From Malacoraja senta (Eukaryota): a DNA stretch of 64,000 bases. The position numbers were made by a program, and so were the translations under genes. The DNA lies in assembly GCA_038087875.1 (NCBI GenBank), contig CM075991.1:62001-126000 (forward strand), given 5' to 3'. Positions 54,691-56,274 of the stretch are shown one piece after another (positions within the stretch are counted from its first letter, which is position 1; every line of letters starts with the position of its first letter). The notes beneath the pieces were generated by a model. That model worked only from the letters and a program-made list of their open reading frames with translations. It made no database searches and had not been told where the DNA came from.

Positions 54691-55299
54691 CTGATTGTTT
54701 CAGGTTGGAGCTTTAGACAAACTCTTAATTCTCAACTAATTCTCAATGAAACCGCACGTCTTTCAGAGGACAGTTGCTACGGCCGATCTCCAGAACTCTG
54801 GGTAATAGTCCCGAGTATACCCCTGCATTTGAGTTAATATCACCTTAGGCAGTTGTCATCGCACGATTGTTTATATTCTTTTACAGTTCACATAGGGAGA
54901 ACAACCTCAGAGTGTAGCAGGTTCGCACCCTCAATGGGACATTTCGAGAATTCCAATCAGAATGTACCAGGTATCACCTAATATAATGGAATTCATGGTG
55001 ATACATATGAACAGAGGGGGCGATCTGTCCGAATGTATAAATTGATGAATAACATGCTCAAAGGTCGTTTCTCATAAATGCCATAAATTACCAGCAATTT
55101 AATTCCTAGAAGGAATGTGTGTTTAAAATAAATCTGAGGATTCCCTTGAGACTGAATATCGATAGAAAACAGTGCACCATGACAGGATTGAATTGGGATA
55201 CAAGGATTTGAAAAGCATGAGCATGCAACAAAGCGACACGCATTGTTCATCGTTTTTTTTTAATCGTTTATTGTAATTGACAATGAACGTAAGGGGTAC

Positions 55300-55390
55300 A
55301 CAAAAATGCTGGAGAAACTCAGCGGGTGCAGCAGCATCTATGGAGCGAAGGAAATAGGTAACGTTTCGGGCCGAAACCCTTCTTCAGACT
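55300..55390 (-). mobile_element. Penelope terminal fragment with hammerhead-like core, overlapping the GPCR 3' end
   Basis: CTGAAGAAGGGTTTCGGCCCGAAACGTT at 55387-55360; flanking repeats at 55283-55299 and 55395-55412. Confidence 0.8.
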
Positions 55391-56274
55391 CAACATGAAC
55401 GTAAGGGGGTACTTCACCACGTATTTGAGCTCCTCCCTGAACCTGCGCTGAGTCACTGCGTATAGGGCTGTGTTCGTACAGCAACTCAAGTGCTGCATAA
55501 TGAAGCCTACATTTTGCACAAAATGAGGAGGAACTATTGACCGTAATCCTAGCCACCACAATCGATTCCATATCGAATAGATCATGAACACCGCCCACAA
55601 TATGACGAAGTTTCCAGAGACAGCGAAGAGTAAGATAATCGATTTCCTTCTGCTCTCCATCTCTGGGTCTCTGGGACTTTCCCCGTGGTTGTGGCCAAGA
55701 AGTCTTCTACGAGCTCTGCTAGCCAGTAAAATCTGTTTAACAGTTAAAGTGTTGAACAATAAAATCAGAAGAAAAGGAGCAACCGGGGTGAGGAAATAGT
55801 GAGTGAATTCGATCGCTGCCCACAACCGTGAACCCGCAACACCGGTTTTTTCCCAACAGATCCAGGGGTCACTGAGGAGGTTATATTCACCCGTTAGCAT
55901 AAAATACCAGAAAATATCCTTAAGGCAATTCAGCGCAGCCACTGTTACCAAAACAACAACCACCGTTTTCTCGGTGCAGTATTTCGACTTCAACTTCTGG
56001 CAACAGATGGCAACAAATCGATCAAACGTGAATGAGACTGTGAACCAGACAGAACAGTCTGTTGCTGCATAAAGGATAACAGCGTGGATGTTACAAACAG
56101 GAACGGGCCAAGGGAAATTAAACTGTCGCCAATATACCATCGGAATGTGCCTCAATATCAGGTCGAAAACAACTACAACCAGATCCGCCGCTGCCATGGC
56201 AATCAGATAGCGAGTGACGCATTTGGAGAGACCACACTTTCCCCTGGAGAGGATTCCAATTGTCAACGAATTGC
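55319..56274 (-). CDS. Class A orphan GPCR (GPR139/GPR142-like), exon 2
   Basis: TM2 YLIAMAAADL, TM3 DCSVWFTVSFTFDRFVAICC, TM5 TPVAPFLLILLFN, TM7 SCCTNTALY, helix 8 RRFREEL; acceptor TTTATTTTAG|GC at 56275/56274. Confidence 0.92.

What the first reader, a model, noticed from the sequence alone, without database searches (positions are those of the whole stretch)
55283..55412. A Penelope fragment with a hammerhead-like core supplies the GPCR's C-terminus and stop codon
Seen: a roughly 90-bp Penelope terminal piece sits between direct repeats ATGAACGTAAGGGG(G)TAC (55283-55299 and 55395-55412) just after helix 8. The frame reads through it as SLKKGFGPKRYLFPSLHRCCCTR and stops inside it. On the mRNA strand it contains CUGAAGA-A-GGG(uuucgg)CCC-GAA-ACGU-U. 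Known: Penelope-like elements carry minimal hammerhead motifs with a palindromic stub in place of stem III, and Cys clusters after helix 8 are typical palmitoylation sites. Inference: one insertion both rewrote the receptor tail and placed a ribozyme-like motif in coding sequence. Caveat: stem I is only about 2 bp here and there is an extra A before stem II, so cleavage may be weak or absent.
Basis: partly seen in the sequence, partly recalled or inferred. Interest (0 to 1): 0.72.

Follow-up and report, generated by a model that had tools for sequence, protein, structure and literature searches.

The report
Retrotransposon rewrote a skate receptor's tail
In one skate lineage a 96-base piece of a very common Penelope-like retrotransposon sits in the last codons of an intact GPR139-like receptor gene, where it replaces the 7 final residues found in relatives with 25 new ones and a new stop codon; its hammerhead-ribozyme motif is likely inactive there, and the event is likely a tolerated accident rather than an adaptation.

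Summary
The insertion is real. A 96-bp element piece plus 4 extra bases lies between 14-bp target-site duplications in the last exon of an intact 409-aa GPR139-like GPCR gene of a skate. Three related species carry the empty site, and orthologues end YPLTFIVN(Y/C)NKR*, so the insertion replaced 7 residues with 25 and supplies the stop; the old stop position now reads TTA. The family is Penelope-like: an 82% identical copy follows a GIY-YIG endonuclease remnant in the window. The minimal-hammerhead core is complete, and the 'extra A' is a family hallmark, not a defect. But stem I has 2 bp, the motif is a lone copy, and a competing helix is predicted to bury the core. The CCC is simply the element's reading frame: an unrelated little-skate gene model ends in the same peptide. 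It lies 42 residues past the TM7 tyrosine. The family is extremely abundant, so such a hit is expected by chance. Expression, fixation, cleavage and palmitoylation are untested. Verdict: a clean new example of a transposon-derived C-terminus, function unsupported.

The parts
57288..57561 (-). Coding exon 1 of the GPR139-like GPCR (ATG at 57561; GT donor at 57287)
   Evidence: matches N-terminus of Rhinoraja XP_078284960.1 (P0121)
55319..56274 (-). Coding exon 2 (AG acceptor at 56275), 7tm_1, open to the element-derived TGA; spliced product 409 aa
   Evidence: 95.1% identical to P0121 over 384 aa
55395..55408 (-). Target-site duplication, upstream (coding) copy, 14 bp
   Evidence: (joint with 14 shared letters)
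55391..55394 (-). Four extra bases (GTTG) between target and element, origin unknown; they set the reading frame
   Evidence: family 5' ends pile up at 55389/55390 (loose ends)
55295..55390 (-). Penelope-like terminal fragment, 96 bp, sense to the mRNA; 55295-55296 shared with the target duplication
55358..55389 (-). Minimal type I hammerhead motif: CUGAAGA 55387-55381, extra A 55380, stem II 55379-55368, GAAA-CG-UU 55367-55360, 2-bp stem I; cleavage would fall between 55360 and 55359
   Evidence: sequence, compared with PMC4209133
55319..55396 (-). New C-terminus MLSLKKGFGPKRYLFPSLHRCCCTR and stop codon (55321-55319)
55283..55296 (-). Target-site duplication, downstream copy, 14 bp
55261..55284 (-). 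Displaced ancestral tail (IVNYNKR) now behind the stop; the ancestral stop position (55263-55261) reads TTA; an AATAAA lies at 55272-55267
56906..57074 (.). Inverted pair of the same young element in the gene's intron (93-96% identical to the insert)
33002..34295 (-). Older relative that ties the family to Penelope-like elements: GIY-YIG/CCHH-type endonuclease remnant (34295-34107 and 33350-33196, split by a 754-bp insert) ending 101 nt before an 82% identical hammerhead piece

Best explanation
A short piece of a very abundant Penelope-like retrotransposon sits in the last codons of an intact GPR139-like receptor gene of one skate lineage and supplies 23 of its 25 new terminal residues and its stop codon; it likely arrived by ordinary target-primed retrotransposition, is likely tolerated by chance, and its hammerhead motif likely does not cut the mRNA. 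Shown: empty site in three relatives, 12-14 bp duplication, open gene, ancestral tail, loss of the old stop, intact hammerhead core, link of the family to a GIY-YIG endonuclease. Inferred: staggered nicks 12-14 bp apart, priming on a 2-base match inside the element RNA, copying that ended just 5' of the hammerhead core (where most family copies end), 4 added bases that fixed the frame; survival because only 7 terminal residues were lost, the stop stays in the last exon and the gene is one of a very large paralogue family; the old stop probably decayed afterwards, so precise loss of the element would now add 46 read-through residues. The cysteines and the ribozyme motif are passengers.
For: Joint 55282 to 55395 skipping 112 bases with 14 shared letters in X2, X3, X4 (3 of 4 runs laid), none in X1, whose contigs cross both junctions with 0 differences. 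Orthologue tails YPLTFIVNYNKR* (Rhinoraja P0121), YPLTFIVNCNKR* (P0001, P0122, P0123), YPVTLIVTFKKR* (Hemitrygon P0002). 110 of 118 paralogue tails are 13 residues or shorter after the YP register, 77 exactly 9; 0 of 118 have CCC. Same peptide, 23 of 24 residues, ends an unrelated Leucoraja erinacea gene model. Abundance: 12 other pieces at E<=1e-5 among 23 blast rows in 64 kb; 48,035-69,697 records laid per run and summed depth 0.9-2.1e7 on the element against 12-57 on its flanks (not a copy number). Ribozyme-ready fold 3e-7 to 2e-5, stem II pairs 0.002-0.007, stem I pairs 0.000 in four sequence contexts; GAAGAAGG of the core pairs instead with CCUAUUUCCUUC downstream. A single minimal hammerhead showed no detectable cleavage in PMC4209133; the Anolis one needed the element's protein in PMC11167929.
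Against: No expression or population data, so neutrality is inferred, not measured. The gene shows no decay: 4 amino-acid differences in 248 against P0001, and 5 synonymous against 3 replacement changes among the listed exon-2 differences to X2 (list truncated, 78 rows hidden), so a working receptor with the new tail is plausible and the tail could matter. The hammerhead core has no mutation. Folding energies ignore tertiary contacts and proteins, and a 2-bp helix I also occurs in Drosophila virilis Penelope (PMC4209133). The order of insertion and stop loss is not shown.
Confidence: 0.72

Rival explanations
1. The new tail has been co-opted: the CCC is S-palmitoylated (and Ser/Thr phosphorylated), giving a nearly tail-less receptor a new lipid anchor or trafficking signal that selection keeps.
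For: Frame open and gene conserved; old stop lost, so the new stop is the working one; X1 shows no empty allele; most GPCRs have potential palmitoylation sites downstream of TM7 (PMC5903346, passage); basic and aromatic residues precede the cysteines (sequence).
Against: CCC is the element's own frame; 42 residues from the TM7 tyrosine, 16 residues past the predicted helix end in a pLDDT<50 stretch; absent from organisms B, C, D; the first six new residues fit the family tail profile no better than 14.6% of random DNA; CCTR is not a standard CaaX ending (recalled knowledge). Palmitoylation could occur without being selected.
Confidence: 0.1
2. The insertion damaged the gene, or the gene was already silent or relaxed (for instance the old stop was lost first); the long frame is a young pseudogene or a weak allele that has not yet decayed.
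For: It removed residues conserved across the family: the new residues score -1.0 bits against 5.6-7.8 for orthologues and a paralogue 5th percentile of 5.5. Large family (2,313 hits) makes loss cheap. The old stop is mutated. The insertion is young, so decay would not yet show.
Against: No frameshift or stop in 409 codons, intact splice sites, 95-98% identity to orthologues, synonymous changes outnumber replacements in the listed differences.
Confidence: 0.13
3. The hammerhead is conditionally active: it cleaves the receptor mRNA 38 nt before the stop as a trans-dimer with another element transcript or with help from the element's protein, producing a stop-less mRNA that is degraded.
For: Every core position, G10.1-C11.1, the extra base and the ACGU palindrome are intact (descriptor; PMC4209133). 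Partner copies are very abundant. The Anolis Penelope hammerhead lies in coding sequence and cleaves when the element protein is added (PMC11167929).
Against: 2-bp stem I, competing helix, predicted ready fraction 2e-5 or less; palindrome duplex only -1.7 kcal/mol for ACGU and -5.5 for the 6-bp form that would also tie up A14 and U17. Dimers cleave poorly even in vitro (PMC4209133); no RNA-seq reads ended at the Anolis site (PMC11167929). Family 5' ends pile up upstream of the core, not at the cleavage site. Rfam finds no hammerhead at E<=5 (its models do not cover minimal forms well, recalled).
Confidence: 0.05

Closest known systems
Minimal type I hammerhead motifs in the pseudo-LTRs of metazoan Penelope-like elements (Cervera and de la Pena 2014, PMC4209133)
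   Same: CUGAnGA, unpaired base between 9 and 10.1, G10.1-C11.1, GAAA, palindromic 15.2-16.2, UH; found mostly as dispersed single copies from truncated elements
   Different: Stem II is 4 bp and stem I 2 bp (7-8 and 4-5 bp in Schistosoma; 2-bp helix I in D. virilis); this copy lies in a host gene's coding sequence; no chondrichthyan name found in the 2 supplementary files searched (file 1 not searched)
Anolis Poseidon element PAc (Frangieh et al. 2024, PMC11167929)
   Same: Hammerhead overlapping coding sequence; copies whose 3' ends fall inside the element RNA downstream of the hammerhead
   Different: There the frame is the element's own ORF and cleavage was shown with its protein; here a host GPCR frame; this family's endonuclease relatives carry the linker zinc finger of Neptune/Nematis, which Penelope/Poseidon lacks (PMC8557442)
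Retroposon-derived C-termini and exonisation (e.g. Baertsch et al. 2008, PMC2584115)
   Same: Inserted retro-sequence supplies a new protein end; gene ends are common sites; most such events are transient
   Different: Direct read-through inside the last exon rather than a new spliced exon; donor is a Penelope-like terminal fragment with a ribozyme motif
Non-LTR retrozymes (Li et al. 2026, 10.64898/2026.07.22.740005)
   Same: Short non-autonomous hammerhead-bearing derivatives of Penelope-like elements; rare exonic copies sit in last exons
   Different: Those are tandem arrays and their exonic copies (0.24-0.32% in Xenopus) are mostly 3' UTR; this is one 96-bp monomer inside the coding frame
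'Probable GPR139' receptor family of cartilaginous fishes
   Same: 7tm_1, 63-96% identity to the 120 best hits except three lower (45-49%), conserved short terminal segment in relatives
   Different: Only distantly like human GPR139 (E 1.2e-7), so the name is an annotation label; ligand unknown; this member has a 28-residue rather than 9-10-residue tail after YP

Membership tests
Penelope-like element (EN+) | C-terminal GIY-YIG endonuclease with two Cys between GIY and YIG, upstream of the terminal repeat | tested here: met
   For the family, not the 96-bp copy: remnant ICCIRCSRCQLLYISET at 34295-34107 with stop 101 nt before an 82% identical hammerhead piece; its phmmer relatives hit Pfam GIY-YIG in 12 of 14 scanned (3 above the curated cut-off; 14 of 150 listed hits, chosen as top or long); Atlas neighbours 0.94-0.95, GIY-YIG on 15-20% of members. 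The remnants themselves hit no Pfam family.
Penelope-like element (EN+) | Telomerase-like reverse transcriptase in the same ORF | tested here: inconclusive
   No RT is attached to these copies in the window; 3 of 14 scanned relatives of the endonuclease remnant carry both RVT_1 and GIY-YIG. No RT phylogeny made.
Penelope-like element (EN+) | 5'-truncated copies, inverted partial pairs, variable 3' tail | tested here: met
   Inverted pair at 56906-57074, another at 9596-9684; opposite-strand joints and several 3' end points among family contigs.
Penelope-like element (EN+) | Target-site duplication at the insertion | tested here: met
   12-14 bp, with empty site in 3 of 4 runs.
Neptune clade | CX2-5CxxC zinc finger in the RT-EN linker, and RT placement | tested here: inconclusive
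   Linker motif seen by eye in relatives P0126, P0136, P0143, P0231; it is shared with Nematis (PMC8557442) and not preserved in the window's remnant; no tree.
Minimal type I hammerhead ribozyme | Core CUGAnGA and GAAA, U16.1-H17, extra base before stem II, G10.1-C11.1 | tested here: met
   Sequence 55387-55360 against PMC4209133.
Minimal type I hammerhead ribozyme | Stem II hairpin | tested here: met
   4 bp can form (3 G-C, 1 U-G; U-A in older copies), though predicted pair probability in context is 0.002-0.007.
Minimal type I hammerhead ribozyme | Helix I of about 4-5 bp closing the motif | tested here: not met
   U-A, G-C, then A-C mismatch. A 2-bp helix I is described for D. virilis (PMC4209133), so this lowers but does not exclude activity.
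Minimal type I hammerhead ribozyme | Second motif in tandem on the same RNA for the dimeric fold | tested here: not met
   The only other complete match in the window is antisense, in the intron; the sense intronic piece lacks CUGAAGA.
Minimal type I hammerhead ribozyme | Site-specific self-cleavage | not testable with these tools
   Needs an in vitro or cyclic-phosphate-end assay.
Palmitoylated class A GPCR tail | Cysteine at or just after helix 8, acylated | tested here: inconclusive
   Position is distal: 42 residues from the TM7 Tyr, 16 past the predicted helix end in a model of mean pLDDT 57.8. Acylation itself not testable here; distal sites exist in other receptors (recalled).
Chondrichthyan GPR139-like GPCR | 7tm_1 domain, two coding exons, high identity to annotated members | tested here: met

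The most novel reading that the evidence does not exclude
The receptor mRNA carries a working, conditionally active hammerhead inside its coding frame: pairing in trans with one of the many element transcripts, or binding of the element's protein, cuts it 38 nt before its only nearby stop codon, so that expression of a host GPCR with a new Cys-rich tail is coupled to retrotransposon activity through non-stop decay.
Probability: 0.04. Interest if true: 0.8.

Novelty: new member of a known kind. Interest (0 to 1): 0.32.

Why it matters
As it stands it is a well-documented, young case of a transposon replacing a receptor's C-terminus, with empty sites in close relatives and an ancestral tail known to the residue: a ready natural pair for asking whether a chance Cys-rich tail changes GPCR trafficking, and a precise record of a Penelope-like insertion (12-14 bp duplication, 2-base match at the 3' junction, 4 extra bases at the 5' junction). 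It also warns annotators that SLKKGFGPKR(C/Y)LFPSLHRCCCTR is a repeat-derived peptide in skate gene models. If the hammerhead cut the mRNA in vivo it would be a ribozyme controlling a host coding sequence, which I did not find described in the searches made, but nothing here shows that.

Tried and rejected
Rfam scan of the whole window at E<=5: no hammerhead family, only microRNA-like hits on the intronic inverted pair, which are hairpin artefacts. No whole genome is held, so copy number and paralogues in this species were not counted. No RNA holder listed among 24 runs: no evidence on expression either way. Idea that the new residues MLSLKK mimic the family's terminal segment: rejected as not significant, 14.6% of 19,936 random stretches and 22 of 160 element offsets score as well. 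First exon join was out of frame and was corrected; the comparison lines that used it are void. Search for other proteins with the tail gave 1 candidate, limited to 174-555 residues and by exact words, so recurrence in other GPCRs is not excluded. Endonuclease remnants: 0 Pfam families, no hit in the word-indexed protein search; resolved. Exact motif in metagenome contigs: 0 matches. Earlier scan findings: nothing in 3 look-ups. AlphaFold model is low confidence, mean pLDDT 57.8, used only for the position of the last helix. Literature on this receptor expansion: 1 paper each; passages read in PMC12294341 and PMC8455134 had nothing on it. Lunse et al. on dimer cleavage is not held and is known to me only through the review PMC6765202. 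CaaX prenylation considered and set aside from recalled rules. A 17-18 bp duplication rejected.

Full report
Setting. The window is from a skate, inferred from the nearest named proteins: the gene's product is 95.1% identical over 384 residues to Rhinoraja longicauda XP_078284960.1 and about 78-80% to Hemitrygon akajei proteins. The gene lies on the minus strand with two coding exons (57561-57288 and 56274-55319, GT-AG intron), gives 409 residues without a break, hits Pfam 7tm_1 and belongs to a large family annotated 'probable GPR139' (2,313 hits at E<=0.001, best 120 listed). Human GPR139 is only a distant match (E 1.2e-7), so the name is a label, not a ligand assignment.

The insertion. I laid 4 of the 24 listed runs on 55000-56400. 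Runs X2, X3 and X4 (organisms B, C, D) each have a contig that joins 55282 to 55395, skipping 112 bases with 14 letters that fit either side. X1 (organism A, possibly the window's own source and so not independent) has contigs over both junctions with no difference and no empty-site joint. The exact repeat is 14 bp. Family copies extend to 55295 at their 3' end and mostly start at 55389/55390 (loose ends), so the element is 55390-55295, two G/C pairs are shared with the target, and 4 bases (55394-55391) belong to neither.

The tail. Orthologues end YPLTFIVNYNKR* (P0121), YPLTFIVNCNKR* (P0001, P0122, P0123; unnamed assemblies, P0001 possibly the same record as one of the laid runs) and YPVTLIVTFKKR* (P0002, P0124). 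The window keeps IVNYNKR just behind the element, followed by TTA where relatives stop; without the element the frame would run 46 further residues. So 7 residues were replaced by 25 (2 from the junction, 23 from the element), 391 to 409 residues. Among 118 paralogues (the listed hits P0003-P0120), 77 have 9 residues after the YP register and 110 have 13 or fewer; 16 have any Cys, 2 have CC, none CCC. The replaced residues are thus part of a conserved short segment. The new ones score -1.0 bits on a profile of it, against 5.6-7.8 for orthologues, and 14.6% of random stretches do as well: no sign that the fit was special. In a low-confidence model (mean pLDDT 57.8) the last helix runs from RRFREE through MLSLK and the rest, CCC included, is below pLDDT 50. 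The first Cys is 42 residues from the TM7 tyrosine. The same peptide, 23 of 24 residues, ends a Leucoraja erinacea gene model with a LINE-type reverse-transcriptase hit (P0125), and the same DNA is in two intronic copies: CCC is the element's frame, not evidence of selection. Against pseudogene status: 4 differences in 248 residues to P0001, and 5 synonymous against 3 replacement changes among the exon-2 differences to X2 that the tool listed (78 rows were not shown). This cannot separate the time before from the time after the insertion.

The element. The window has 12 other pieces at E<=1e-5 among 23 blast rows, and 48,035-69,697 contigs per run were laid, with summed depth on the element some five to six orders of magnitude above its flanks (the tool warns this is no copy number). 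An 82% identical copy at 33098-33002 begins 101 nt after the stop of a broken frame reading ICCIRCSRCQLLYISET ... LHPSGMN. That remnant hits no Pfam model itself and found nothing in the word-indexed search, but phmmer gave 371 relatives at E<=0.001; of 14 scanned (top or long ones among the 150 listed), 12 hit GIY-YIG, 3 above the curated cut-off, and 3 carry both RVT_1 and GIY-YIG; Atlas neighbours agree. Four relatives that I printed show a linker zinc finger, which Craig et al. give for Neptune and Nematis (PMC8557442, passages). With inverted pairs this supports a Penelope-like, probably Neptune-type family; no RT tree was made. Rough inference: at about one piece per 5 kb as in this window, and a family of probably hundreds of receptor genes, a hit in some member's last few codons is expected by chance.

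The hammerhead. Positions 55387-55360 give CUGAAGA, A, GGGU-UUCG-GCCC, GAAA, CG, UU. Cervera and de la Pena (PMC4209133; parts 1-2 of 4 of the text read, 2 supplementary files searched, file 1 not searchable) list the unpaired base between 9 and 10.1, G10.1-C11.1 and the palindrome as conserved features, so the extra A is normal. My descriptor, written after seeing the motif, matched only this copy and the antisense intronic copy and none of 300 shuffles. Rfam found no hammerhead. Stem I is U-A, G-C, then a mismatch. In four contexts the fold with stems I and II formed and the core free holds 3e-7 to 2e-5 of the ensemble, because the core's GAAGAAGG pairs with CCUAUUUCCUUC downstream; these energies ignore tertiary contacts and proteins. 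There is no tandem sense partner on the mRNA. In PMC4209133 a single minimal motif showed no detectable cleavage and dimers low activity; a review says the same (PMC6765202, passages). For the other side: D. virilis Penelope has a 2-bp helix I, and the Anolis element's hammerhead overlaps its ORF and cleaves when the element's protein is added, though no RNA-seq reads ended at the site (PMC11167929, parts 1-2 of 4 read). A cut would fall 38 nt before the stop and leave a stop-less mRNA, which would be costly for an expressed gene (inference).

Mechanism, committed. Shown: insertion, duplication, replaced tail, new stop, lost old stop, intact core, family link. Inferred (0.72): ordinary target-primed insertion of a truncated terminal piece, tolerated because it touches only the last residues of one member of a large family; cysteines and ribozyme motif are passengers; the old stop probably decayed later. 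Rivals: damaged or silent gene (0.13), co-opted lipid-anchored tail (0.10), conditional cleavage (0.05).

Comparison and novelty. Retro-derived protein ends are known and mostly transient (PMC2584115, passages). Hammerhead-bearing Penelope derivatives are depleted from exons and, when exonic, mostly in 3' UTRs (10.64898/2026.07.22.740005; part 1 of 5 and passages), so a copy inside a coding frame is uncommon. I found no description of this skate case or of a host frame ending in such a motif in the listings (listings and abstract starts only; the library lacks most subscription papers; none of the 15 listed of 1,338 papers held 'hammerhead ribozyme'). PMC5903346, PMC5078798, PMC12294341 and PMC8455134 were seen as passages only. 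Verdict: observation confirmed with corrections, interpretation partly supported, new member of a known kind, interest 0.32; the active-ribozyme case is about 0.04 likely and would deserve 0.8.

Noticed in passing
window 55388-55390; also 33099, 35997, 38401, 40499: Family copies mostly begin 2-3 nt before the hammerhead core rather than at the cleavage site, and longer copies have a pyrimidine-rich run and CAG there. This resembles the D. virilis arrangement where an intron's 3' end maps at helix I (PMC4209133); splicing might complete stem I in the active element.
   Followed up: partly
window 56906-57074: Inverted pair of the same young element in the receptor's intron forms a long hairpin that draws spurious Rfam microRNA hits; its antisense arm could also pair with the exonic copy in the pre-mRNA.
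   Followed up: partly
window 55000-55320 in run X1: The contig over the 3' junction has depth 11.9 against 28 for the coding contig: a second haplotype with another 3' flank, or uneven coverage.
   Followed up: no
window 55261-55263: The ancestral stop position reads TTA, so the element's stop cannot be lost cleanly; excision by the duplication would add 46 residues.
   Followed up: yes
window 33351-34104: A 754-bp insert splits the endonuclease remnant; it resembles sequence at 53188-53353 and 53570-53984 (69-78% identity). Family not identified.
   Followed up: partly
window 54029-54087 and 54946-55004: A 59-bp direct repeat (98% identical) about 0.9 kb apart, downstream of the receptor gene.
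   Followed up: no
window 521-4065, 13529-15676, 60047-63302: Three broken elements with frames that look by eye like reverse transcriptase/RNase H and tyrosine recombinase (DIRS-type retrotransposons; label recalled, not tested).
   Followed up: no
window 38622-39813 (-): Frameshifted C2H2 zinc-finger array remnant, read by eye from the ORF list.
   Followed up: no
window 36555-36708, 8334-8393, 38292-38401: Short tandem copies of an older element subfamily that begin at GAAACGTC, lacking the 5' half of the hammerhead.
   Followed up: no
P0125 (Leucoraja erinacea LOC129698391): An annotated protein ends in the same repeat-derived peptide, probably a gene-model artefact or a second read-through case.
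   Followed up: partly
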